Of a stretch of DNA of 60,270 bases, positions 43,496-54,187 are shown in pieces. This DNA comes from a virus: the UHGV virus genome UHGV-0335561; one strand, written 5' to 3'. The notes beneath the pieces were generated by a model that saw only the letters and a list, made by a program, of their open reading frames with translations, was not told the origin of the DNA and did no database searches. Every line of letters starts with the position of its first letter. Within the stretch, counting starts at the first letter, position 1. The position numbers and the translations under genes are program-made.

Positions 43496-44365
43496 TCAGA
43501 AGTCAGCCAGCTGGTCGGAGGCTGCGCCCGTTGCGGTGAAGCGGTTCTGCGGATCGCCGTCCTGCGTGCGCAGTTTTTCCTTCAATGCTGTCAGCTCTGT
43601 GGTCAGTGACGTGATTTTCTGGCGGTCCTGCTGATGGCGGGTTTCCAGCACATTAAAACGGTCGATAATGTCGGCCTGTGACGTTGCAACGCCTTCCACC
43701 GCTTCCTGAATTCGGGAGAAACTGGCGTCATCCGCTTTGCGGCCACGACCAATAATCCCCATTACGCGGTTAAACCACTGGGTGCCTTCTTCCTGGCGTT
43801 GTTCTGCCATTTCGATGATTTCAGACTCGATGGCTTCGGAGATAAGCGGTGCTTCACCCTGGATACTGTTGAACGTCATCACCGCCTGACGTTGCTGTGC
43901 CGTGAATTTCAGGCGCTCAGTGCCCAGGCTTGCCGGGGTGTCGGTCATCGCCAGCCCGACCAGATAGGCGCGCCCGTTAACGGAGAACTGCGGGTGCAGT
44001 TCGATACTGGAATAGATTTTCTTGCCGTCAGCGACAAGCTGCTTCATGCGCTCGGTCGGTTCGATTTCTGCATACAGCGCAGTACGTCCGGCCAGCGGAC
44101 CTTCCGTAATGTCTTCCGTACTCAGTGCGGTGACATCGCCCATTGCGGAAAATTCGCTTGACGGACATGGCGAGAGATAGTGCTCAACGTTCACGCGGGC
44201 AGCGTAAACATCCGGGTTGAAGTTCTCGGCGGCTTCACGCAGATGCACCGGACTGATTTCACGGCCATCAACAGTTGATCCGGAGACAGCCACGCGAAAC
44301 TTTTTGCGGGATGTCTTTTTTTCATTAGCCATAGTTTTTGCCCCTCTGACTGGTTCTTCAGTCAT
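43496..44365 (-). CDS. O: capsid scaffolding protein (P2 gpO family)
   Basis: 289 aa; divergent from P. Confidence 0.82.
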   Translation of the reverse strand: MTEEPVRGAKTMANEKKTSRKKFRVAVSGSTVDGREISPVHLREAAENFNPDVYAARVNVEHYLSPCPSSEFSAMGDVTALSTEDITEGPLAGRTALYAEIEPTERMKQLVADGKKIYSSIELHPQFSVNGRAYLVGLAMTDTPASLGTERLKFTAQQRQAVMTFNSIQGEAPLISEAIESEIIEMAEQRQEEGTQWFNRVMGIIGRGRKADDASFSRIQEAVEGVATSQADIIDRFNVLETRHQQDRQKITSLTTELTALKEKLRTQDGDPQNRFTATGAASDQLADF

Positions 44366-44486: not shown

Positions 44487-46238
44487 ATGATTCAGGACGC
44501 TTTTGTGCGCCAGCGTGCGCGGCAACTTTACTGGCAGGGTTATCCGCCCGCAGAAATATCACGTCTGATGGGAATAAACCCGAACACGATTTATGCGTGG
44601 AAAAAACGTGACCAGTGGGATGAAACGCCACCCGTGCAGCGTGTCACGCAGTCCATCGATGCGCGCCTCATCCAGCTTACTGAAAAACAGAATAAAACAG
44701 GCGGTGACTTTAAGGAAATAGACCTGCTGACCCGGCAGCTTAAAAAGCTGCATGATGGCCAGCCGGATGTGATGGCCGCAGGAAAGAAAGGCCGGGCGAA
44801 AAAACTCAAAAATCATTTCACGCCGGAACAGATTGCCGCACTGCGGGAAAAAATCATCAGCAGGCTGGAGTGGCATCAGCGGGGCTGGTTTGACTCCCTG
44901 ACCCTTTGCAGGGAAGCCGGGATACGTAACAGGATGATCCTGAAATCCCGACAGATTGGGGCGACCTGGTATTTTGCACAGGAAGCACTGCTGATGGCGC
45001 TGCGTGACGATGTGGCGCAACCTTACCAGCGTAACCAGATTTTTTTGTCTGCGTCGCGTCGTCAGGCGTTCCAGTTTAAAAGCATTATTCAGAAGGCCGC
45101 GGCTGAAGTTGATGTGGAGCTGAAAGGGGGCGATAAAATCATCCTCTCCAACGGCGCAGAGCTGCATTTTCTCGGCACTTCTGCTGCGTCGGCACAGTCC
45201 TATACGGGCAATTTTTATTTTGATGAATTTTTCTGGGTCAGTCGCTTTGCTGAACTGCGCAAGGTGGCTGGCGCTATGGCAACCCTCAGCGGACTGCGGC
45301 GCACCTACTTCTCCACGCCATCCACCGAAACGCACGAGGCATACGCCTACTGGAACGGCGACCGCTGGAACGAGAAAAAGGCCTCGCATAAACGCCAGCG
45401 TTTTTCTGTGGACTGGAAAACGCTGCATAATGGGCTTATCTGCCCTGACCGGACGTGGCGGCAAATTGTCACGCTGGAAGATGTGGTTAATCACGGCTGG
45501 AAACACACCGATATCGACGAAATTCGTGATGAAAACACCGAAGACGAGTTCCTCAATCTCTATATGTGTGAGTTTGTCCGCGAAGGGGAATCGGCATTTA
45601 ACCTGAATATCCTGATTGGCTGCGGTGTTGACGGATACGACGACTGGAAAGACTGGAAACCTTTTGCTCCCCGCCCGATGGGGAATCGTCCGGTATGGAT
45701 TGGGTATGACGCAAACGGCAGTAGTGGCAACGGCGACAGCGGCGCTGTGTCCGTGGTGGTTCCTCCGGCTGTTCCTGGCGGCCGTTTTCGAACGGTGGAG
45801 ACGCGACGCGTTCAGGGGCTGGAGTTTGAAGAACAGGCCAGAGTCATTGAAGAGTTCACGTGTCGCTACAACGTGGAACACATCGGCATTGATGTGACGG
45901 GCGGGAACGGGGAGGCTGTTTATCAGATAGTGAAGCGGTTTTTCCCTGCTGCTATTCCGTACACCTTCACGCTGTCATCAAAACGGTCGCTGGTACTGAA
46001 AATGCTGCAAATAATGCGTGCCGGGCGGTGGGAATACGATCGCGCCGAACGCGAGCTGGTCGCGGCCTTTAACGCCGTGCGTAAGGTGAAAACACCGGGC
46101 GGCTTTATCACTTACGAAACGGACCGCGCGAGGGGGATCAGCCACGGCGACCTTGCGTGGGCAACCATGCTTGCTGTCATTAACGAACCAATTGGCGGCG
46201 AAGGAGAAAACGAGCGTTTCATGGTTATGGAGTTCTGA
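44487..46238 (+). CDS. P: terminase ATPase (large) subunit (P2 gpP family)
   Basis: 583 aa; Walker A-like KSRQIGAT. Confidence 0.88.
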   Translation: MIQDAFVRQRARQLYWQGYPPAEISRLMGINPNTIYAWKKRDQWDETPPVQRVTQSIDARLIQLTEKQNKTGGDFKEIDLLTRQLKKLHDGQPDVMAAGKKGRAKKLKNHFTPEQIAALREKIISRLEWHQRGWFDSLTLCREAGIRNRMILKSRQIGATWYFAQEALLMALRDDVAQPYQRNQIFLSASRRQAFQFKSIIQKAAAEVDVELKGGDKIILSNGAELHFLGTSAASAQSYTGNFYFDEFFWVSRFAELRKVAGAMATLSGLRRTYFSTPSTETHEAYAYWNGDRWNEKKASHKRQRFSVDWKTLHNGLICPDRTWRQIVTLEDVVNHGWKHTDIDEIRDENTEDEFLNLYMCEFVREGESAFNLNILIGCGVDGYDDWKDWKPFAPRPMGNRPVWIGYDANGSSGNGDSGAVSVVVPPAVPGGRFRTVETRRVQGLEFEEQARVIEEFTCRYNVEHIGIDVTGGNGEAVYQIVKRFFPAAIPYTFTLSSKRSLVLKMLQIMRAGRWEYDRAERELVAAFNAVRKVKTPGGFITYETDRARGISHGDLAWATMLAVINEPIGGEGENERFMVMEF

Positions 46239-47284
46239 TGAGCAGAAAAAATAAAAAAGTGCGCATGAGTTCACGCATTGATCTCGCTGATGCGCTCAGG
46301 AAAGAATCATCGCTCAGTGCATTCACATTTGATGGTCCTTATCGCCTGACCGGGCATGACCTGCTGGACAATATGTACTGTGCTGATAACGGGCGGTGGT
46401 ATGAAACCCCGGTGGACTGGTACGGTCTGGCAAGAGCAGCCCGGCAAACGTCCTGGCATCAGTCTGCGCTTTACTTTAAGCGCAATGTATTACTCGGTTG
46501 CTACATCCCGCACCCGCTGCTTTCCCGGCAGGATTTCTCGGCGCTGGCGCTGGACTGGTTTGTGTTCGGTAACGCATTCCTTGAGCTTCGAAGCAATATG
46601 CTCGGCGAACCGCTTAAATTACGGCACGCCCTGGCGAAATACATGCGACGCGGAAGCGATCTTGAATCATGGTGGTATGTGCAGGATGGCAAGGACGCGT
46701 TTCAGTTTCGTCCTGGCAAAGTGTGCCACCTGATGAATCCGGATATTAACCAGGAAATCTACGGCATGCCGGAATATCTTGGCGCATTACTCTCGGCCAG
46801 CCTTTCTCATTCGGCGGACATGTTCAGAAAACTGTACTACGACAACGGATCCCACGCCGGGTGCATCATCTACATCGGTGCAGCGCAGGTAAACCGCGAA
46901 AGCATGGACTCCCTGAAAGAAACGCTACAGGGGGCACGTGGTGGTGGTGCGTTTAAAAACGTGCTCATTCATGCGCCCAACGGGGGCAAAGAGGGGGTGC
47001 AAATTTTGCCGTTCCAGCAGATCACCGCAAAAGATGAATTCATGAATGTTAAGGCGGCATCCCGTGATGATGTGCTGGCTGCGCACCGCGTTCCGCCGCA
47101 ACTGATGGGGGCGATGCCGGGCGAAAAAAGTGCGTTTGGCGATGTGGAGAAGGCAGCGCGGGTTTACGCAATTAACGAGCTGATGCCCGTTATGGAGGCT
47201 ATGAAGCACATCAATGACTGGCTTGGCGAAGAGGTGATCCGTTTTAACTCTTATGCTCTTCTTGATGAAAAAACAGCCCCGTGA
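46238..47284 (+). CDS. Q: portal protein (P2 gpQ family)
   Basis: 348 aa; start overlaps P stop. Confidence 0.85.
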   Translation: MSRKNKKVRMSSRIDLADALRKESSLSAFTFDGPYRLTGHDLLDNMYCADNGRWYETPVDWYGLARAARQTSWHQSALYFKRNVLLGCYIPHPLLSRQDFSALALDWFVFGNAFLELRSNMLGEPLKLRHALAKYMRRGSDLESWWYVQDGKDAFQFRPGKVCHLMNPDINQEIYGMPEYLGALLSASLSHSADMFRKLYYDNGSHAGCIIYIGAAQVNRESMDSLKETLQGARGGGAFKNVLIHAPNGGKEGVQILPFQQITAKDEFMNVKAASRDDVLAAHRVPPQLMGAMPGEKSAFGDVEKAARVYAINELMPVMEAMKHINDWLGEEVIRFNSYALLDEKTAP

Positions 47285-47300
47285 TGGGGCTGTCCTTTTT
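47268..47300. terminator. bidirectional terminator between convergent Q and the 174-aa gene
   Basis: acagccccgtgatggggctgt hairpin with T run after and A run before. Confidence 0.65.
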
Positions 47301-47823
47301 ACCAGAGTTGAACCATTTTCTGGGTGCCGTCAGGCTTGAGATTATCAATTTCAGAGAGAACGTAATATTGAATGGCTTCACAAACGGTGGTGTAGGGTGA
47401 ATTACCTTCTTTAAGTGGCACGATATTATTATTAACGCGAACCTGTATTTCATCGTTATACATTGCGATCGAAACAGGAGTGTGCACGAACGCGACTTCG
47501 CCAGGTGTGTCGTCAACCACCGTTTCAATACTAAAAGTCAGTTTTCGCTCATCATTGCTGCCCCGTGCTTTGGGGGTAGCGGCAGGGATCTGGGATAAAG
47601 GCATTCTGCGAAATCCTTCGGCTGCTTCCAGTCCGCATGAAACGTAATGCTGGCGATTACCGTCGCTATCTGTCCAGGTCTGTGATGGCAGCTCCAGCGA
47701 GATTTCATAAGCATCAACAATGCCCTGGGCAAGGCGTACAAGCGGGGTCAGATCTTCATTGCGGCGAAAGCTCTCCTTTACCTGCTCCCGTTTTTCTCTT
47801 AACTGCTTGTAATTAATGACCAT
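47299..47823 (-). CDS. hypothetical 174-aa protein at the cos-proximal edge of the cargo locus
   Basis: GGAGG RBS 7 nt upstream of ATG (MVINYKQLREKREQVKESF...); own terminator; no TM; no family recognised. Confidence 0.6.
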   Translation of the reverse strand: MVINYKQLREKREQVKESFRRNEDLTPLVRLAQGIVDAYEISLELPSQTWTDSDGNRQHYVSCGLEAAEGFRRMPLSQIPAATPKARGSNDERKLTFSIETVVDDTPGEVAFVHTPVSIAMYNDEIQVRVNNNIVPLKEGNSPYTTVCEAIQYYVLSEIDNLKPDGTQKMVQLW

Positions 47824-48368
47824 AAGACAGCCTCCATTGATTTCTTTGCTCGTATTTTGCACTTATGAAGTATGGTCGGCAAGGTGCCGTATCGCTGACG
47901 CGCTTCGCTTGTCTGCTGCTTCGCCGGGGCATAAAAAATTTATGCCCCGGCTCTCCAGCTCCTGTATCAATCAGATAATTTCACGACGCCTTCCAGTTTA
48001 TCGCCACCATCGACGGTCAGACTCTTACGCAATTCCACCGCGTTGACTGCATGTTCTCGCTGCCTCAGTGCGATTTTGACGGCCTTACCTTTCACCCCAT
48101 CAAATCAAAAGCCCTCACGCCTTTTTCATGCTCAGCGTGAGAAATATGGCCATTCTGTTGTGTCTCTGCGACATCGTTCAGGGAATGCTATTTACCCCCT
48201 GAAACGCGGGCTGTTCCCCCGTCACCTGCGCGCAGAAAAAGCGCGTTTTTTTGTGCACGCACGGATCCTTGACGGATCCAGCCGCCATGCGGGCCGGAAG
48301 GGTAAAAAGTCGTTCAAAAAAATTGTGCAAATTTGTGCACTTTTGTGCAGGTAAGCATGCCTATATAT

Positions 48369-48397
48369 TTGACCGTGGCTTGCCTTTGATGTAGTTT
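48369..48397 (+). promoter_or_regulatory. putative sigma70 promoter (TTGACC, 17 bp, TAGTTT) preceded by three TTGTGCA repeats at 10-bp spacing
   Basis: aattgtgcaaatttgtgcacttttgtgcag upstream of the -35/-10 pair. Confidence 0.35.
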
Positions 48398-48449
48398 ATA
48401 CGTCACAAAAACCACAAAACGTGGTTATGATTTCTATGAGGGGGTTGAT

Positions 48450-48485
48450 ATGAAAAAAATGTATGATGAATTTGATGGTTTCTAA
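48450..48485 (+). other. leader mini-ORF (11 codons, MKKMYDEFDGF) with strong RBS, just upstream of a terminator
   Basis: GAGGGGG RBS 5 nt upstream of ATG; stop about 20 nt before the hairpin. Confidence 0.35.
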
Positions 48486-48503
48486 GCTACGTTGACCTCT
48501 AAT

Positions 48504-48534
48504 GAGGCGGGGATTTGCTCCCCGCCTTTTTTAT
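48504..48534 (+). terminator. rho-independent terminator/attenuator 13 bp upstream of the first cassette gene
   Basis: gaggcgggga-tttgc-tccccgcc followed by tttttt. Confidence 0.7.
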
Positions 48535-48546
48535 GGATGAAATAGG

Positions 48547-49044
48547 ATGAACCCAATAACACTACAAATCATCAGCAATGCTATTGTTCTGCTTGGCGTT
48601 TTGGTTGCCATTGGAACCATTATCTACAATGTGCGTACCGCAAAAAAAACTCAAACGGCCAACTTTCTTTTTGAGAGTCGGCAAGATATGCAATATATAG
48701 AGTCATTGCATACCCTGAAACAAGTGCATCGTTCAGGCAAATCATTTCGTTCTTATGTTTTTCCTTGTGATGGTTGCATAATAACAGATGAAGAAATGGC
48801 CGAGCGTCGAAAATTTCAATATATTTTAAATTTTTACGAGCGAGTTGCTGTAAGTATTCGTGAAGGTATTTATGATGAAAAAATGATAAAAAGAACATCT
48901 TACACAACAGTTGTAGAGACATATGATATTGCCGAGCCATTAATTAAAGCAATCAGAGAAAGCATTAATTCGGATACTACATATCAAGAATTCGAATGGT
49001 TAGTAAGAAGATGGAAAGCTAATCCTTTACGGAAAAACAAATAA
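48547..49044 (+). CDS. hypothetical membrane-anchored protein (single N-terminal TM plus about 135-aa soluble domain), AT-rich
   Basis: 165 aa MNPITLQIISNAIVLLGVLVAIGTIIYNV...; visibly lower GC than flanks. Confidence 0.7.
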   Translation: MNPITLQIISNAIVLLGVLVAIGTIIYNVRTAKKTQTANFLFESRQDMQYIESLHTLKQVHRSGKSFRSYVFPCDGCIITDEEMAERRKFQYILNFYERVAVSIREGIYDEKMIKRTSYTTVVETYDIAEPLIKAIRESINSDTTYQEFEWLVRRWKANPLRKNK

Positions 49045-49083
49045 TGTTTTACCCTTTAATTTACAAGTAACACAGGGGGAAGT

Positions 49084-49926
49084 GTGACACAGAATCCGTT
49101 TTCATTTTATGACTTTTTGGGCTATCTAATTCCAGGTGGGTTATTCCTGTTTATCCTTTTTTTGTTTTCTATTGAAATTAACCCTGTTTATATAGAAGGT
49201 ATTCTTAACCATATCCTGAAATATAAAGAAATAATAAGTGTATTTATATATGTGGTATTAATCGTTCTATCATATATTTCAGGTCACTTCATATCTATTC
49301 TATCATCCTGTTTAATTGAAAAATACATGAACAGTAAACTTGGGTATCCTTCAATTTATCTGTTTTCTAAAAGAAGCTCCCTGAAAATAAAACGACATAA
49401 TACTAAGTTCAGTATAGTTAATTTTATTCGTGGAGTTTTTTTATTTCCTGTATCAGCTTTTGATAAAGCAGAACATCATAAAACCACACTGCATTCTATA
49501 CTTATTAAAGTCTTTTGGCCGCAAATACGAGATGGTTATATAAATGTTTTTTCTGTATCTACGCTATATCGACGTAAGGGCTTGAGGGGCGATCTTTTTC
49601 GCCTTGCTTATCATTATGTGTATGAACATTCTAAAAATCATCAGGTGAAAATGCAAAACTATGTTGCTTTGTATGGTTTTTGTAGAAACATTACATTTGT
49701 TTTTCTCGCTTCAGTCTGGTTGCTTATGTTCCTGCTCCTTCTATCCTTTTTAATAGATATAAATATCAGACTGTTACCTTTTTGTTTTCTTCTCTTGTTT
49801 TGTATTGCTGCATCCCGAGTATTTTATTATGGTTTTGTTAAGTATTATCGCCGCTATTCTCTTGAGGTTTTAATGGCATTTGCGGTACTTCAGCACGATA
49901 AAAAAACTTCGGCAATTTCATCATGA
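49084..49926 (+). CDS. hypothetical polytopic membrane protein (4-5 predicted TM helices), AT-rich
   Basis: 280 aa; hydrophobic segments at about 10-30, 50-72, 196-222, 224-250; purine-rich RBS region. Confidence 0.7.
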   Translation: MTQNPFSFYDFLGYLIPGGLFLFILFLFSIEINPVYIEGILNHILKYKEIISVFIYVVLIVLSYISGHFISILSSCLIEKYMNSKLGYPSIYLFSKRSSLKIKRHNTKFSIVNFIRGVFLFPVSAFDKAEHHKTTLHSILIKVFWPQIRDGYINVFSVSTLYRRKGLRGDLFRLAYHYVYEHSKNHQVKMQNYVALYGFCRNITFVFLASVWLLMFLLLLSFLIDINIRLLPFCFLLLFCIAASRVFYYGFVKYYRRYSLEVLMAFAVLQHDKKTSAISS

Positions 49927-49942
49927 TTTGAAACATTGGCAC

Positions 49943-49970
49943 CCTGTTAGCAAGGGTGCCAGAATGATGT
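49943..49970. terminator. hairpin between the convergent membrane cassette and parR
   Basis: ggcaccct-gttagca-agggtgcc. Confidence 0.55.
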
Positions 49971-50009
49971 GTTGGTCTGTATTTTATTAGTTCACATACA
50001 ATTATCAGA

Positions 50010-50324
50010 TTATTCTGGGAATAAGGTCTGAATATTCTTTTTTATTTTATAAAAATTGCATTCAACTCCGCTAGGCTGATTATCCTGGTATGTTTCCTTG
50101 ATGCTAACGGTATTGAAGGGGAGGTTGTCCTCTGGCCATTCGGCCATCCAGTAGGCAAATGCTGGGTTGCGCTTTATGAGCGCTAGCCCAGCCAGAAAGG
50201 CCGCGCGTTGCGCGCGGCTGCGTTCGGAGGCTGGCAGGCTATCGAGGTAATTGCACGCCTCCTGTTCACTCTTGACGGCGGCGGGCTTCAGATAGAAACT
50301 TATCCGTCTGGTTGGTGTCGTCAT
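50010..50324 (-). CDS. parR: ParR-like centromere-binding protein (type II partition, ribbon-helix-helix)
   Basis: 104 aa; RRISFYLKPAAVKSEQEACNYLDSLPASERSRAQRAAFLAGLALIKRNP resembles plasmid R1 ParR as I recall it; AAGGAG RBS. Confidence 0.75.
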   Translation of the reverse strand: MTTPTRRISFYLKPAAVKSEQEACNYLDSLPASERSRAQRAAFLAGLALIKRNPAFAYWMAEWPEDNLPFNTVSIKETYQDNQPSGVECNFYKIKKNIQTLFPE

Positions 50325-50328
50325 TGGT

Positions 50329-51288
50329 TTACTCCTTGTCCATTGCGTACAGCCCATTAACCAGAGCAAACTGTGGCACCCCGTCCGCGATGAAAGTCGC
50401 ATTAACTCCGCAGACTTCGCGGATAGCGGGTGCCACAATCTCCGCCCCTCCACCGACAACCATCACCCGCCCGTAACCCGAAAAAACCGCCAGCGCGCGG
50501 ATCACGCGTTGTTTCAGTGTTTCTTCCTTTTCACGAATAACCGCCATCAGGCTGGCGTAATGCGCGTCATTGTGGATGTGCTGGCGCAGCCAGGCTTCAT
50601 CATGGCGATGTTCGATAATGGTATTGGCGATGTGGTGACTGGTGCGCATACCGTTAGTGGCCATCACCGACAGTACGGCATCGGCCATCAGGGAAACGCC
50701 TACGTGTGGATCGCAAAACACCTGGCTGATACCTGCCAGTTGCCCTTGAACCTTTGCCACATCCAGCGTGGTTCCGCCTAAATCCACAATCAGCAGGGAT
50801 TCAAACGGACTCATGTCAGCCAGTGCTTTAAAGCCAGCCGGAATGGATTCAGGCATAACCCGCACGTTACGGATAGTGAATGCTTCGCCGTTCTGGTATT
50901 CCACCGGGCGCATAACGTTCGCTTTTTTGCGGTTGATGTTGGCCATGTCCGGCTGTGCGTTTGTGTCGAAATACTCGCTCAGTGGCAGGGTGACAACCAC
51001 ATCCACCTCCTGTGGCGTGATGCCTGATTTGACCAGCGCGTGATGAATGGCGATTACATTCACATCGCTGTACTGGTATTGCGTGTCGGTCGTCTGGACA
51101 AAGCGATCGCTAACCGGATCAAAACCATAGCGCACGCCATCAAGCATGTAGTTCGCGGGCTGCATGCCACCGAACGGCGCAGACCATTCCGACTTGAAGC
51201 TGTTCGGGCTGATGGCGTTGCGGCGTTCGCCATTCTCAGTCCATGCCAGCTTGATGTTGGTGGAGCCGTCGTCGATACAAATTTTCAT
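50329..51288 (-). CDS. parM: ParM/StbA-family actin-like segregation ATPase
   Basis: 319 aa; MKICIDDGSTNIKLAW...ISPNSFK.EW...YSDVNVIAIHHAL... motifs of R1 ParM. Confidence 0.85.
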   Translation of the reverse strand: MKICIDDGSTNIKLAWTENGERRNAISPNSFKSEWSAPFGGMQPANYMLDGVRYGFDPVSDRFVQTTDTQYQYSDVNVIAIHHALVKSGITPQEVDVVVTLPLSEYFDTNAQPDMANINRKKANVMRPVEYQNGEAFTIRNVRVMPESIPAGFKALADMSPFESLLIVDLGGTTLDVAKVQGQLAGISQVFCDPHVGVSLMADAVLSVMATNGMRTSHHIANTIIEHRHDEAWLRQHIHNDAHYASLMAVIREKEETLKQRVIRALAVFSGYGRVMVVGGGAEIVAPAIREVCGVNATFIADGVPQFALVNGLYAMDKE

Positions 51289-51304: not shown

Positions 51305-51440
51305 TTGATTAATTAATCGTTTACGGGATTCTGAAATCCCGTTTTTGCCTGTTTTGTGCGCGCTTCATATATCGCTGCGCGTTTTTTGCTCATTTACGGG
51401 ATTCGTAAGTCCCGTTTCTGTCTGTTTTTTGTTTCCACTG
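51305..51440. repeat. two direct repeats of about 45 bp, each with an internal palindrome (ACGGGATT...AATCCCGT), upstream of parM; putative parC-like centromere/operator
   Basis: cgtttacgggattctgaaatcccgtttttgcctgtttt and tcatttacgggattcgtaagtcccgtttctgtctgtttt; the second copy overlaps the last codons of A. Confidence 0.55.
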
Positions 51441-54187
51441 GTCAGGCCACCCCGCAGCAGGTCTGCTTTGCGGCTGGCGCGTTCAGTGGTTTCACTGATT
51501 CTCTGTGCGTGCTCTGCGTCGCGGATGGCGCGCAGCATGTCAGAAAGCACGGTAACGGGTGTTTTCATGGTGTTCTGGCCCTGCTGAAGTGTGGATGCCA
51601 GGCGTGCGGCGGCTTCAGGGTCTGATGCCCCCAGCTGTGCCAGATAGCTGGCGACCGGGTTATGGCGGATCTCCGTGCTGCTTACGCCATGATTACGGCT
51701 CAGGCGCTGCCAGAGCTGCGTGATTCGGCTGTCCGGGCGGGTATCCGGTTTGCGTACAATTTCAAATCCCTGCGGTGCAATGATGCTGCCGTCAACGTAC
51801 AGACTGCCGCCCCGTAACAGGTGCTGCATCTGTTGTTCACCGATATGCAGGCCGAGAGATTCAGCAGACTCCCGCCATTCTTTAGCGAGTAATTCGTGGT
51901 TATCAGGCAAAGGCCGCTGCTGTTTGCGGCTCTGTGTCCAGCTCTGCATTTCATCGCTGCTGTTTTTTGCCTGTTTGTCACGAAGCGAACGCATCAGCGC
52001 CCGGCGTTCGTGTCGTTTCAGTGAGCGCATCCATTCGTTCACTTCAACGCCGTCAGGGAGCTGCGGCCACGGTGCTGGCCGTTCTTCCGGCTGTTCTGTC
52101 CCGTTGTTGTCCGTTTCCTGTACACGGGGACAGTTATTGCCACGAGTCCAAGGGGCGGCAGGGCCGCCCTGAAGGTCAAAACCATTTTCGCGGGCGCTGT
52201 CTTCCGCTTCCGGTTTACGTCTTACCAGCTTCCAGTTATCCGGATGCGTGCACACACGGGAGGATTCCCCGATGAGTGGTGACCAGATCCCGTAAATCTG
52301 TACGCTCTGTTCGCCGTAATCGTTCAGCTCATCTGCGAGGTCGTAGGCGGTGCGAATCAGGTAGTCCTTGCGTGGAACAAGCACGCCACCCTGTTTTTCA
52401 ATGTAGGTGGCAAAACACCCGGCATCGGCGGCAGCGAGTACCGCATCCATTGCATCATCTTTCAGCCGTTGCGGGCCTTCCGGATTGCGTGCCATCTGGC
52501 TGGCAAGGCGGCGCAGTTCACGCCACACCTGACGGGAGGGGATGCCAAAGAACTGGAACTGACGGACCCGGTGAAGGCGCGCCCAGCCGATGGCGCGCTC
52601 CACGCTCTCGGCCATTGATTTTCCGGTTTCGTGGTCCACGCGTGGCTTGCCCGTTTTCGGGTCGATGCCATCCACGGCGCGGCTGTCCAGGTTCTTTCCG
52701 ATGTAGGTGGCGATGTAGCTGGTTGGCGTGCCTTTTGAGCCGTCGACATACTCCACCTTAAAGCGCGGAGTAATATCATTGCCCAGCTCGTGGCGGTCTT
52801 CCTGAATGGCAATATCGCGGGTATGGGACACAATGGTGTCGATTTCTTCCGGATGTGCAAAGACCATCATATGCCAGTGCACGGTGCCGTCATGATGAGG
52901 CTCCACCGTGCGGATGCCATACCAGCGCAGGCCGTCGCGGTTCAGTTTTTTGCGGACCGCCGCAAAAAACGTGTTAACCAGGTAATCGCTGGAGTCGCGC
53001 ATTGTGGCCCCGTTCCATTTGGGATTCGGATGACCGTTCTCCGTTGTGGCGTGGTATTTTGACGGGCAGGTGACAGTCAGAAACACCGCTTTGTCGCCAC
53101 GGGCTTCGGCCAGAAGTTCCAGTCCCTTCATGGTGGCCATCATTTCTGCCTTACGGTGAACCGGGTTACTTACTCCCGCGTAATACACTGTCTCGAGATC
53201 AATCGTGAACCCGTCTTCATTTTCCAGCATGAAACTTTTCAGGAAATCGCGTGTTTTCTCGCGCTGTGCGCGAAACTCGCTTAACGCGTCCTGGCTCAGA
53301 TAGGGTGATGTTTTTCTGGAAACCAGACAGGCGGCGCGGAGTTGTTCTTCTCTCCACTCGCAACGTAACAGCCACAGTTTGCGTTTCCACCATTCCGCAC
53401 AGGTCAGGCGAAGGATTGCGCCCGGCAGCAGCTCCGTGTCCGGTTCGTTCCTCCGGTCTTTGTCTGTTGTCAGTGCGTCATAATGTGGAGGCATGGCGTG
53501 CAGGTGTAACGCCATGCGGGCCAGCATCTGATACGCCTTCAGGGTTACATCCATGGTCAGCTCGCCATCGGTCGCGCCAAAGCCATCGCAGAGTTTTTCG
53601 AAGGTGCTGCTGAACATCGCCGCCGTCATGGTGGCCAGCGTCTGTATCTGGTGTTTGTTGAGCTGCGGCAGGTAAAGCAAATCGTCCAGGCGTTCGCGTC
53701 CGGCAAGGGAGCGATAACCCGGTGTCAGCCAGCGTCCGTCAGTGCTATCCAGACGTTCGAATATTTTGCGCAGGGTTCCGCGTGCATAGCGTTCCGCCTG
53801 CCAGCTCTTTTTGCCTTTCCGGCGATCGGCTTCCTGTTTTTTGCGCAGGAAGGAGAGGTGGCGAATAAGCGGATCGCGCAGATAGGACGGCAGCAGGCGC
53901 AGCGAGGCCATGGCTTCATCCACCGCGCCACGTGCCTGTTTTCTGGCGTCTCCTGCCAGTGTGATGGTTTTGTCCTGTTTTTCCTGTGCGTCCAGGCTTT
54001 TATTAATCAGGTTGCCCAGCGGCGTGGCTGAGAACGCCGCATCAGCCATTTCCTGGCGGCGCTCGTTCTCTGCCCGGTAGGCATCCAGCCAGGAGGAAAG
54101 CGCGGATTCAGGAGCGGGGATCCCCGTTCCTTCACGCCCCACTGCGTGGCGCGGTTGTTGCCAGTCCCTGAGGTACTCTGCCGTCAT
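51365..54187 (-). CDS. A: replication initiation endonuclease (P2 gpA-family rolling-circle initiator)
   Basis: 940 aa; P2/186 A-like domains; position in the early operon. Confidence 0.85.
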   Translation of the reverse strand: MTAEYLRDWQQPRHAVGREGTGIPAPESALSSWLDAYRAENERRQEMADAAFSATPLGNLINKSLDAQEKQDKTITLAGDARKQARGAVDEAMASLRLLPSYLRDPLIRHLSFLRKKQEADRRKGKKSWQAERYARGTLRKIFERLDSTDGRWLTPGYRSLAGRERLDDLLYLPQLNKHQIQTLATMTAAMFSSTFEKLCDGFGATDGELTMDVTLKAYQMLARMALHLHAMPPHYDALTTDKDRRNEPDTELLPGAILRLTCAEWWKRKLWLLRCEWREEQLRAACLVSRKTSPYLSQDALSEFRAQREKTRDFLKSFMLENEDGFTIDLETVYYAGVSNPVHRKAEMMATMKGLELLAEARGDKAVFLTVTCPSKYHATTENGHPNPKWNGATMRDSSDYLVNTFFAAVRKKLNRDGLRWYGIRTVEPHHDGTVHWHMMVFAHPEEIDTIVSHTRDIAIQEDRHELGNDITPRFKVEYVDGSKGTPTSYIATYIGKNLDSRAVDGIDPKTGKPRVDHETGKSMAESVERAIGWARLHRVRQFQFFGIPSRQVWRELRRLASQMARNPEGPQRLKDDAMDAVLAAADAGCFATYIEKQGGVLVPRKDYLIRTAYDLADELNDYGEQSVQIYGIWSPLIGESSRVCTHPDNWKLVRRKPEAEDSARENGFDLQGGPAAPWTRGNNCPRVQETDNNGTEQPEERPAPWPQLPDGVEVNEWMRSLKRHERRALMRSLRDKQAKNSSDEMQSWTQSRKQQRPLPDNHELLAKEWRESAESLGLHIGEQQMQHLLRGGSLYVDGSIIAPQGFEIVRKPDTRPDSRITQLWQRLSRNHGVSSTEIRHNPVASYLAQLGASDPEAAARLASTLQQGQNTMKTPVTVLSDMLRAIRDAEHAQRISETTERASRKADLLRGGLTSGNKKQTETGLTNPVNEQKTRSDI

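What the first reader, a model, noticed from the sequence alone, without database searches (positions are those of the whole stretch)
48320..48546. Leader peptide plus intrinsic terminator (attenuator-like) and phased TTGTGCA repeats controlling the membrane cassette
Upstream of the cassette are three TTGTGCA direct repeats at about 10-bp phasing, a promoter-like -35/-10 pair, an 11-codon mini-ORF (MKKMYDEFDGF) with a strong SD, and a strong hairpin plus T-tract only about 13 bp before the first gene. That gene has almost no room for its own SD. The arrangement suggests expression is gated by transcription attenuation or a repressor on the phased repeats, as expected for a toxic effector kept silent until triggered.
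Basis: seen in the sequence. Interest (0 to 1): 0.55.

Follow-up and report, generated by a model that had tools for sequence, protein, structure and literature searches.

The report
Conserved phage micro-gene before DUF4760
Upstream of a prophage membrane-protein gene sits a real, evolutionarily conserved 11-codon gene followed by a transcription terminator. Its peptide ending (DEFDGF) recurs in many unrelated phages, while the nearby TTGTGCA repeats belong to the phage's DNA-packaging site and do not control the gene.

Summary
All four described features are present at the stated coordinates. They belong to two different things.

1. **The TTGTGCA repeats.** The repeats at 48323, 48333 and 48343, with a fourth copy at 48251, are backbone of a P2-like (P88-type) prophage beside cos. 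In 1124 E. coli genomes homology ends exactly after the third repeat. They precede 25 unrelated cargo types in both orientations. P2 and P4 carry an analogous 1+3 repeat layout beside their cos. I infer a packaging-signal role, not cassette control.

2. **The leader, 48350-48546.** It runs promoter, 5' stem-loop, strong SD, MKKMYDEFDGF, intrinsic terminator, weak RBS. It travels with DUF4760 in more than 40 loci across Gammaproteobacteria, inside and outside phages, but not with the second cassette gene.
   - The peptide is conserved through synonymous changes.
   - The terminator is conserved through compensatory changes.
   - No antiterminator is conserved.

Micro-ORFs ending in DEFDGF-stop also occur in at least 77 other phage contigs, in about ten unrelated contexts. 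Some are the last ORF of a transcription unit.

Best reading: a micro-gene plus a ratio-setting terminator, like mccA, rather than a trp-type switch. A cis-acting arrest peptide is not excluded. Nothing comparable was found in Rfam, RefSeq annotation or the searched literature.

The parts
48208..48226 (.). Probable cos core (GGGCTGTTCCCCCGTCACC) of the P88-type P2-like prophage
   Evidence: The reverse complement matches 13 of 19 bases of P2 cos. Related phages carry GCTTGCTCCCCCGCCTCGCC, which is P2-like, at the same position. A GC hairpin, a T run and a repeat copy follow, as in P2 and P4. Inferred, not mapped.
48228..48246 (+). GC hairpin plus T run immediately after cos
   Evidence: Terminator-like site. 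It occupies the same position as the hairpin after cos in P2 and P4.
48251..48257 (+). Upstream single TTGTGCA copy
   Evidence: It lies 65 bp before the triple repeat in 71 of 74 related viral contigs.
48323..48349 (+). Three TTGTGCA repeats, 10-bp phased. They are the last bases of the phage backbone and a probable packaging-signal element
   Evidence: Homology in 1124 E. coli genomes ends at 48349/48350. The repeats are invariant before 25 unrelated right flanks. P2 and P4 have an analogous 1+3 ATGCA layout.
48369..48397 (+). Module promoter: -35 TTGACC (48369-48374), 17-bp spacer, -10 TAGTTT (48392-48397)
   Evidence: Most relatives have TTGACT-17-TAATTT, TAGTTT or TAGATT at the same distance from the mini-ORF, 51-73 nt. 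Not mapped experimentally.
48410..48426 (+). 5'-UTR stem-loop AACCAC-aaaac-GTGGTT
   Evidence: Most relatives have a hairpin at this position with different stem sequences.
48438..48444 (+). Shine-Dalgarno GAGGGGG of the mini-ORF
   Evidence: GGAGG or GGGGG sits 5-8 nt before the ATG in all relatives.
48450..48485 (+). Micro-ORF MKKMYDEFDGF (11 codons plus TAA)
   Evidence: Conserved at the amino-acid level in all DUF4760 loci. In the last 7 codons, variable sites by codon position are 2/2/7. Clade variants include DEYDWF, DEFEGF, DDYEGF and DTDGGL.
48476..48489 (+). Small hairpin closing over the stop codon
   Evidence: RNAalifold helix at columns 47-51/56-60. It shows CG-to-UA covariation tied to the GAC/GAT and GGC/GGT codon choice. 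The helix is weak in this window, with 2 G-U pairs.
48492..48500 (+). Conserved spacer motif TTGACCTCT (anti-SD-like CCTCT)
   Evidence: Conserved columns in alignment A2. Function unknown. Complementary to the mini-ORF SD region.
48504..48532 (+). Intrinsic terminator: 10-bp stem, 5-nt loop, T run
   Evidence: Of 13 predicted pairs (8 in this stem, 5 in the stop-codon hairpin), 8 show compensatory changes; 5 of those 8 lie in this stem. Distant clades have completely different stems at the same place.
48533..48542 (+). Conserved ATGGATGAAA, with a weak GGA ribosome-binding region for DUF4760
   Evidence: Nearly invariant at the nucleotide level whatever the reading frame.
48547..49044 (+). 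DUF4760 gene (165 aa; N-terminal membrane helix plus helical domain)
49084..49926 (+). Second cassette gene (280-aa multi-pass membrane protein). Not part of the conserved module
   Evidence: Absent next to DUF4760 in all 11 genome loci. phrog_12528, unknown function. Weak PADLOC Csx27 match at 1e-5.

Best explanation
**The leader.** Positions 48350-48546 are the 5' half of a self-contained mobile module: a micro-gene plus DUF4760. The steps below are inferred from sequence; no transcript was mapped.

1. A constitutive sigma-70 promoter starts a transcript that carries a stabilising 5' stem-loop.
2. A very strong SD drives translation of an 11-residue peptide, MKKMYDEFDGF.
3. Most RNA polymerases then stop at a strong intrinsic terminator, giving an abundant short peptide mRNA of about 130 nt.
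4. The minority that read through produce DUF4760 from a weak RBS, and in this prophage also the extra 280-aa membrane protein.

The terminator therefore sets a high peptide to low DUF4760 ratio. This is the design shown for mccA-mccB. It is not a trp-type alternative-structure switch.

The peptide is under amino-acid-level selection. It belongs to a widespread family of phage micro-ORFs ending in DEFDGF, so it most likely acts as a peptide in trans. It may be a partner or antidote of DUF4760, or it may act on a common target.

**The repeats.** The TTGTGCA repeats are unrelated to this module. They are part of the cos region of the phage backbone and probably serve as terminase-recognition elements.
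For: **Locus.** This is the known P2 hotspot between gpQ/cos and gpA (PMC9122126).

**Module boundary.** In E. coli genomes homology ends at 48349/48350.

**The leader travels with DUF4760.**
- The mini-ORF, hairpin and DUF4760 occur together in Xenorhabdus, Kluyvera, Enterobacter, Klebsiella, Rahnella, Pantoea, Providencia, Pseudomonas and Xanthomonadales, in phage and non-phage sites.
- Gene 2 is absent from the 11 genome loci tested.

**The ORF is coding.** Variable sites by codon position in the last 7 codons are 2/2/7.

**The terminator is conserved as a structure.** Only the terminator and a small stop-codon hairpin are conserved, and both show compensatory changes.

**The peptide is more than a leader.**
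Of these, 114 lie in open frames shorter than 40 codons.
- The reverse-peptide control gave only 19 hits, 15 of them from one ordinary protein family.
- In several contexts the micro-ORF is the last ORF before a terminator and a convergent gene, so it cannot be a leader there.

**Precedent.** mccA shows the same design (PMC4231749).

**Repeats.**
Against: - No transcript, peptide or termination efficiency was measured.
- A terminator this strong predicts very little DUF4760. That would make more sense if something conditionally relieves it.
- Peptide-level conservation is also what an arrest peptide would show.
- The stop-to-stem spacing is strikingly similar in two unrelated groups: 16-18 nt in the DUF4760 group and 19-20 nt in group B. 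This hints at a ribosome-terminator relationship that I cannot explain.
- Peptides of 8-11 residues are normally short-lived in the cytoplasm.
- The packaging role of the repeats rests on comparative layout only.
Confidence: 0.5

Rival explanations
1. The mini-ORF is a cis-acting leader or arrest peptide. Translation of DEFDGF-stop stalls or destabilises the ribosome in response to a cellular or phage-induced signal. That changes read-through of the terminator, or unmasks the DUF4760 RBS, so DUF4760 is induced only when triggered.
For: - Amino-acid-level conservation, concentrated at the C-terminus next to the stop codon.
- A conserved small hairpin over the stop codon and a conserved anti-SD-like CCTCT motif between the stop and the terminator.
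- A strong terminator directly before a gene with no promoter of its own.
- Similar stop-to-stem spacing of 16-20 nt in unrelated contexts.
- In lambdoid phages the micro-ORF sits in the leader downstream of antiterminator Q.
Against: - No conserved alternative pairing involves either terminator arm.
- In this window the stem starts 18 nt after the stop codon, beyond the reach of a terminating ribosome.
- That spacing varies from 11 to 45 nt among DUF4760 clades.
- Micro-ORFs of the same family occur as the last ORF of a unit, with a convergent gene downstream.
- Tandem-motif versions exist, such as MKDEFEWCDEFDGF.
Confidence: 0.25
2. The micro-gene with its terminator is an independent 'moron' that merely lies upstream. 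The hairpin just ends that transcript, and DUF4760 is expressed by some other route.
For: DEFDGF micro-ORFs followed by terminators exist on their own in other phage contexts.
Against: - The pairing with DUF4760 persists down to 40-47% protein identity, with clade-specific peptide variants and different hairpins.
- Only 14 nt separate the T run from the ATG, which leaves no room for a promoter.
- The promoter upstream of the mini-ORF is the only conserved one.
Confidence: 0.1
3. The phased TTGTGCA repeats are operator sites where a repressor controls transcription into the cassette.
For: There are three identical heptamers on one face of the helix. The last ends 19 bp upstream of the -35. In P2 the third analogous repeat overlaps the -35 of the old promoter.
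Against: - The repeats are conserved in 74 viral contigs and 1124 E. coli genomes, ahead of 25 unrelated cargo types. Many of those cargo types begin with the terminator of a gene pointing towards the repeats.
- DUF4760 modules outside P2-like phages lack the repeats but keep the promoter.
- The fourth copy sits at a fixed 65 bp, next to cos.
- P4, which shares only packaging sequences with P2 (as stated in PMC9122126), has the same 1+3 layout.
Confidence: 0.05

Closest known systems
mccA-mccB intergenic terminator of the microcin C operon (Zukher et al. 2014, PMC4231749)
   Same: Both have a tiny first cistron (7 versus 11 codons) with a strong SD, a 3' UTR with a small hairpin followed by an intrinsic terminator, and downstream genes reached only by read-through. 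In mcc the result is an abundant, stable short transcript of about 105 nt and a high peptide-to-enzyme ratio.
   Different: - The downstream gene here is DUF4760, a membrane-anchored helical protein, not an MccB adenylyltransferase.
- The peptides are unrelated.
- Ribosome-induced termination and transcript abundance were not tested here.
- In this window the terminator folds stably without help.
Classical leader-peptide attenuators (trp, his, pyrBI)
   Same: A short translated ORF followed by an intrinsic terminator upstream of the structural gene.
   Different: There are no runs of regulatory codons. No conserved antiterminator or anti-antiterminator pairing exists. The ORF ends 18 nt before the stem rather than overlapping it.
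Nascent-peptide arrest leaders (TnaC, SpeFL, Erm/Cat leaders)
   Same: A short ORF whose amino-acid sequence, not only its codons, is conserved. The C-terminal residues next to the stop codon are the most conserved.
   Different: No sequence similarity was noted by eye (no alignment was run). No downstream rut site or alternative RBS-masking structure was shown. The family also occurs where there is nothing downstream to regulate.
Acidic/aromatic C-terminal replisome-docking tails: RB69 gp43 ...KKASLFDMFDF (clamp-binding), T7 gp2.5 ...ADEDGDF, T7 gp4 ...NDTDF, and E. coli SSB ...DFDDDIPF (the last from memory)
   Same: The pattern KK-x-LFD-x-FD-x-F-COOH of the relatives' MKKLFDEFDGF closely matches the RB69 polymerase tail. 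The skeleton DE..DG.F-COOH matches T7 gp2.5.
   Different: Those are tails of large proteins, whereas this is a free peptide. The resemblance covers 6-8 residues and no binding was tested.
Phage cos recognition repeats (lambda cosB R sites; the P2/P4 cos region)
   Same: Short direct repeats at fixed spacing beside the cohesive-end site, conserved with the packaging genes. P2 and P4 have 1+3 ATGCA copies in the same layout.
   Different: The motif here is TTGTGCA, not ATGCA. No binding or packaging data exist. I could not read the P2 cos paper.

Membership tests
Ribosome-mediated transcription attenuator (trp/his/pyrBI type) | Translated leader ORF upstream of an intrinsic terminator and the regulated gene | tested here: met
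   Conserved in relatives.
Ribosome-mediated transcription attenuator (trp/his/pyrBI type) | Mutually exclusive antiterminator and terminator structures whose choice depends on ribosome position | tested here: not met
   RNAfold centroid and RNAalifold on 29 leaders give only the terminator and a 5-bp stop-codon hairpin. The stop-to-stem distance is 18 nt here and 11-45 nt elsewhere.
Ribosome-mediated transcription attenuator (trp/his/pyrBI type) | Regulatory codon runs in the leader | tested here: not met
   MKKMYDEFDGF has no repeated regulatory codon. Conservation lies in the D/E/F/G motif.
mccA-type micro-gene with ratio-setting intercistronic terminator | Micro-ORF with strong SD as first cistron, followed by a hairpin terminator before the next cistron | tested here: met
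mccA-type micro-gene with ratio-setting intercistronic terminator | Abundant short terminated transcript plus a minor read-through transcript | not testable with these tools
   Needs Northern blot, RACE or RNA-seq.
mccA-type micro-gene with ratio-setting intercistronic terminator | Downstream MccB-like enzyme that modifies the peptide | tested here: not met
   Pfam gives only DUF4760. The fold resembles the EP domain, not an adenylyltransferase.
Nascent-peptide arrest leader | Amino-acid sequence conserved independently of nucleotide sequence | tested here: met
Nascent-peptide arrest leader | Ribosome stalling that remodels downstream RNA or blocks Rho or the terminator | not testable with these tools
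   No conserved switchable structure was found. Stalling needs toeprinting.
Operator for a cassette-specific repressor (TTGTGCA repeats) | Sites co-inherited with the regulated promoter or gene | tested here: not met
   The repeats stay with the backbone, ahead of 25 unrelated cargo types. DUF4760 modules elsewhere lack them.
P2-family cos packaging signal (TTGTGCA repeats) | Fixed position beside the cohesive-end site, between gpQ and the hotspot, conserved with the packaging genes | tested here: met
   The layout cos-like core, hairpin, one copy, 65 bp, then three copies occurs in 71 of 74 contigs. P2 and P4 have the same layout with ATGCA.
P2-family cos packaging signal (TTGTGCA repeats) | Required for terminase binding or packaging | not testable with these tools
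   Needs cos-plasmid transduction or footprinting.
Toxin-antitoxin-like pair (peptide antidote plus DUF4760) | Two co-inherited adjacent genes, with the first more highly expressed | tested here: inconclusive
   Co-inheritance is shown. The expression ratio is inferred from the terminator and RBS only.
Toxin-antitoxin-like pair (peptide antidote plus DUF4760) | Second product is toxic and is neutralised by the first | not testable with these tools
Needs expression experiments.
Any Rfam family | Match to a curated covariance model | tested here: not met
   cmscan of 47200-50400 at E<=1 gave only two sub-threshold chance hits.

The most novel reading that the evidence does not exclude
The 11-residue product belongs to a large, undescribed family of phage micropeptides, M-x(0-6)-DEFDGF-COOH. 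These would act in trans by mimicking the acidic/aromatic C-terminal tails that dock replisome proteins, for example the RB69 polymerase clamp-binding tail KKASLFDMFDF or T7 gp2.5 ...DEDGDF.

In this prophage the peptide would be either a decoy that poisons the replisome of an invading phage, or the guarded bait or antidote whose capture releases the EP-domain-like membrane protein DUF4760.
Probability: 0.12. Interest if true: 0.9.

Novelty: new variant of a known kind. Interest (0 to 1): 0.68.

Why it matters
DUF4760 is one of the commonest cargoes of the P2 defence hotspot. It appears 197 times in the hotspot table of Rousset et al., and I found no evidence there that it was tested.

- **For experiments.** DUF4760 always comes with a strongly expressed micro-gene and an internal terminator. 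Anyone cloning or testing DUF4760 without its 200-bp leader would be testing half a system.
- **For annotation.** The peptide ending recurs in micro-ORFs of lambdoid, P2-like, P22/Sf6-like and T4-like phages. These ORFs fall below every gene-calling threshold, so a whole class of phage products may be missing from annotations.
- **For hotspot mapping.** The result separates packaging-signal repeats from cargo regulation at the P2 hotspot boundary. This helps define where cargo begins.

Tried and rejected
- **P2 cos search.** An exact or near-exact search for P2 cos in the window (up to 3 mismatches) found nothing. The cos core was located only through intermediate phages. I first took the ends of the LR595891 record (window about 48304) for cos. 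I dropped this because the P2-like core lies at 48208-48226.
- **Antiterminator search.** SD-region pairing with the CCTCT spacer or with the 3' arm is possible on paper. It is weak, is not picked by RNAfold or RNAalifold, and is absent in Rahnella-type leaders.
- **A short uORF in ATGGATGAAA coupled to DUF4760.** The reading frame is not conserved, by inspection of the sequences printed.
- **Resemblance of the peptide to DUF4760's own YQEFEWL helix.** The shuffle test gave p of about 0.02-0.09 in Enterobacterales only and no signal in other clades. This was not pursued.
- **Literature.** 'DUF4760' appears in one irrelevant paper. 'DEFDGF' returned only one irrelevant paper. The P2 cos paper is not held.
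- **A mis-specified query.** One search used wrong coordinates and was redone.
- **RB69 scan.** A scan of RB69 15-45 kb for similar micro-ORFs printed nothing, not even the gp43 tail FDMFDF* that lies in that stretch. The pattern could not have matched such motifs, so the scan is uninformative.

Full report
**Setting**

The window around the finding is a P2-like prophage of the P88/Xuanwuvirus type. The gene order is:

| Feature | Coordinates | Strand |
|---|---|---|
| gpO | 43496-44365 | - |
| terminase gpP | 44487-46238 | + |
| portal gpQ | 46238-47284 | + |
| 187-aa ORF | 47299-47862 | - |
| 684-bp non-coding stretch | 47863-48546 | |
| DUF4760 gene | 48547-49044 | + |
| 280-aa membrane protein | 49084-49926 | + |
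| StbB-like and ParM-like genes | 50010-51288 | - |
| replication gene gpA | 51365-54187 | - |

This is the cos-proximal hotspot of P2-like phages described by Rousset et al. (PMC9122126). [quoted passage not shown] I found no sign there that it was tested.

**Observation**

- TTGTGCA occurs at 48323, 48333 and 48343, exactly 10 bp apart.
- The 11-codon ORF runs from 48450 to 48485 and encodes MKKMYDEFDGF, with the SD GAGGGGG upstream.
- A 10-bp GC-rich hairpin spans 48504-48528, followed by a T run to 48532.
- The DUF4760 ATG is at 48547.
- A fourth TTGTGCA copy lies at 48251.

**The repeats belong to the phage backbone, not the cassette**

- A 401-bp query across the region matched 1124 of 5426 complete E. 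coli genomes. In about 840 of them the match stops at query position 150-151, which is window 48349/48350, the last base of the third repeat. The other 285 genomes continue through the leader and DUF4760.
- In 74 IMG/VR contigs the triple repeat lies downstream of a gpQ homologue. It is followed by 25 unrelated sequence clusters. Many of these begin with the terminator of a gene pointing towards the repeats.
- The repeats, and the 65-bp distance to the upstream single copy, are kept in 71 of 74 contigs. This holds even in phages whose gpQ is only about 70% identical and whose intervening sequence has diverged.
- Those diverged phages carry GCTTGCTCCCCCGCCTCGCC, nearly the P2 cohesive-end sequence, where the window has GGGCTGTTCCCCCGTCACC at 48208-48226. 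In both, a GC hairpin, a T run and the first repeat copy follow.
- P2 has the same layout with a different motif: cos, hairpin, AATGCA, 72 bp, then three phased ATGCA copies. The third copy overlaps the -35 of the old promoter.
- Satellite P4 shares only its packaging signal with P2, as stated in PMC9122126. It also has one copy plus three ATGCA copies on the same side of cos.

I therefore infer that the repeats are part of the packaging signal. This is inference from layout, with no binding data.

**The leader belongs to DUF4760**

- Eleven DUF4760 homologues from species-representative genomes (66-88% identity) come from eight or more genera. All have, directly upstream, a strong SD, a 9-12-codon ORF ending in DE[FY]D[GW]F, a GC hairpin with a T run, and then the gene.
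- Only three of these eleven loci are in P2-like prophages. The others sit between housekeeping genes.
- The 280-aa second gene is found in none of the eleven.
- In viral contigs, 41 of 42 usable loci have the same arrangement, down to 46% protein identity. The exception has an insertion in the hairpin.
- More distant clades reached through a second protein search keep a micro-ORF plus hairpin with variant peptides:
  - MVNYIRDEFEGF (Providencia);
  - MRYSDEYEGL (Entomohabitans);
  - M(M)IKLVKRDDYEGF (P. aeruginosa);
  - MTFKRDDYEGF (a JGI metagenome contig, L076);
  - MKDTDGGL, MKDTTGGF and MKMKDTSGGL (Cognatiluteimonas and metagenomes).
- In the last seven codons of 19 distinct sequences, variable sites by codon position are 2, 2 and 7. 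This is the signature of a translated, selected peptide.
- The promoter (TTGACT-17-TAATTT or TAGTTT) and a 5'-UTR hairpin with differing stem sequences are also conserved.
- RefSeq annotates nothing here. Rfam has no match.

**How it probably works**

RNAalifold on 29 leaders recovers only two helices.
- One is the terminator, with compensatory changes. Distant clades have wholly different stems.
- The other is a 5-bp hairpin closing over the stop codon. Its CG-to-UA covariation is tied to the synonymous choice of the Asp and Gly codons.

No antiterminator is conserved. The single-sequence fold shows the terminator forming on its own. The stop codon lies 18 nt before the stem here, and 11-45 nt before it in other clades. 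A ribosome at the stop codon therefore should not melt the stem. This argues against a trp- or pyrBI-type switch.

The architecture closely parallels the mccA transcript. Both have a 5' UTR, a micro-ORF with strong SD, a small hairpin, a terminator, and downstream genes reached only by read-through. In mcc the terminator creates an abundant, stable peptide mRNA of about 105 nt and a minor polycistronic RNA (PMC4231749). I therefore commit to a micro-gene plus ratio-setting terminator as the most likely mechanism, with confidence of about 0.5.
- **Shown:** co-inheritance, coding selection and structural conservation.
- **Inferred:** transcript pattern, expression ratio and trans action.

**The peptide family extends beyond DUF4760**

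Only 36 hits are followed by DUF4760.
- Of the 120 hits, 114 lie in open frames shorter than 40 codons. Typical products are MKDEFDGF, MYDEFDGF, MLDEFDGF, MEDEFDGF and MKKKRMNDEFDGF. Tandem-motif forms such as MKDEFEWCDEFDGF also occur.
- A control pattern for the reversed peptide, with identical codon degeneracy, gave 19 hits. Fifteen of them are from one ordinary 172-aa protein family.
- Flanking sequences differ completely between groups. The contexts are listed below:
  - the leader downstream of lambdoid antiterminator Q, before the lysis genes;
  - an ORF coupled by an ATGA/GTGA overlap to the end of a gp49/66-family gene, followed by a terminator and a convergent terminase gene;
  - a site after a ClpX-zinc-finger protein in P88-like hotspots;
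  - sites after Doc, a phosphoesterase or a lysozyme;
  - a site between gp55 and gp47 in T4-like phages.
- Where the micro-ORF is the last ORF of a unit it cannot be a leader. This favours a peptide acting in trans.
- However, 25 of 60 distinct downstream contexts place an intrinsic terminator after the stop codon, 21 of them at 16-20 nt. This spacing recurs in unrelated groups and I cannot explain it. The cis-acting rival therefore stays at about 0.25.

**Resemblances (leads, not tests)**

- The relatives' MKKLFDEFDGF resembles the RB69 polymerase C-terminal clamp-binding tail...KKASLFDMFDF (clamp binding per PMC6212786).
- DEFDGF resembles the T7 gp2.5 tail...ADEDGDF.

**Verdict**

- The leader and terminator form a real, conserved and apparently undescribed unit, but one specific to DUF4760.
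- It is more likely a micro-gene with a ratio-setting terminator than a sensing attenuator.
- The repeats are packaging-site backbone.

Noticed in passing
IMG/VR loci L091, L098, L202-L300 (e.g. L209, L229, L237, L213, L275): Micro-ORFs ending in DEFDGF-stop (MKDEFDGF, MYDEFDGF, MLDEFDGF, MKKKRMNDEFDGF and tandem-motif forms) occur in about ten unrelated phage contexts. These include sites after antiterminator Q, ORFs coupled to a gp49/66 gene, sites after Doc, and T4-like phages. Of the 120 hits, 114 lie in open frames shorter than 40 codons, and the reversed-peptide control shows no such enrichment.
   Followed up: partly
[not shown]
   Followed up: partly
window 48208-48257; P2 (L005/L006), P4 (L079/L080): P2, P4 and P88-type phages share a layout beside cos: cos core, GC hairpin, T run, one repeat copy, 62-72 bp, then three phased copies. 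The motif is ATGCA in P2 and P4 and TTGTGCA here. In P2 the third copy overlaps the -35 of the old promoter.
   Followed up: partly
window 47299-47862 (- strand): A 187-aa ORF (phrog_5091, unknown function) lies between gpQ and cos. Most related contigs have gpQ ending 436 bp before the repeats; a minority, including this window, have about 1040 bp. This suggests a second, smaller variable site on the gpQ side of cos.
   Followed up: no
window 49084-49926: The second cassette gene (280-aa multi-pass membrane protein, phrog_12528) has a weak PADLOC match to Csx27, the type VI-B CRISPR accessory membrane protein (E 1e-5). It is not linked to DUF4760 in the 11 genome loci tested.
   Followed up: no
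L007 (NZ_AP043614.1), L030, L192, L295; corresponds to window about 48511-48522: An IS4-family element (IS421) is inserted inside the terminator hairpin in some E. coli genomes and viral contigs. This separates the promoter and mini-ORF from DUF4760. The junctions suggest a 12-bp target duplication.
   Followed up: partly
window 50010-51288 (- strand): This P2-like prophage carries ParM (StbA) and StbB-like plasmid partition genes between gpA and the hotspot. In some relatives the StbB gene is followed by a ClpX-zinc-finger protein and then a DEFDGF micro-ORF.
   Followed up: no
promoter spacers of L009, L011, L012, L017, L033, L034, L037, L044 (equivalent to window 48375-48397): Most relatives have an inverted repeat, ATTACC-N4-GGTAAT, spanning the promoter spacer and the -10, like an operator. 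It is degenerate in this window (CTTGCC...GTAGTT).
   Followed up: no
window 48476-48489 and alignment A2 columns 47-60: A small hairpin closes over the mini-ORF stop codon. Its base pairs covary with the synonymous choice of the Asp and Gly codons (CG 16, UA 7). The coding and structural constraints overlap.
   Followed up: partly
window 48450-48485 versus 48982-49002 (DUF4760 residues 146-152): In Enterobacterales, the best match of the peptide's last seven residues within DUF4760 is the protein's own nearly invariant YQEFEWL motif (shuffle p of about 0.02-0.09). This does not hold in distant clades.
   Followed up: partly
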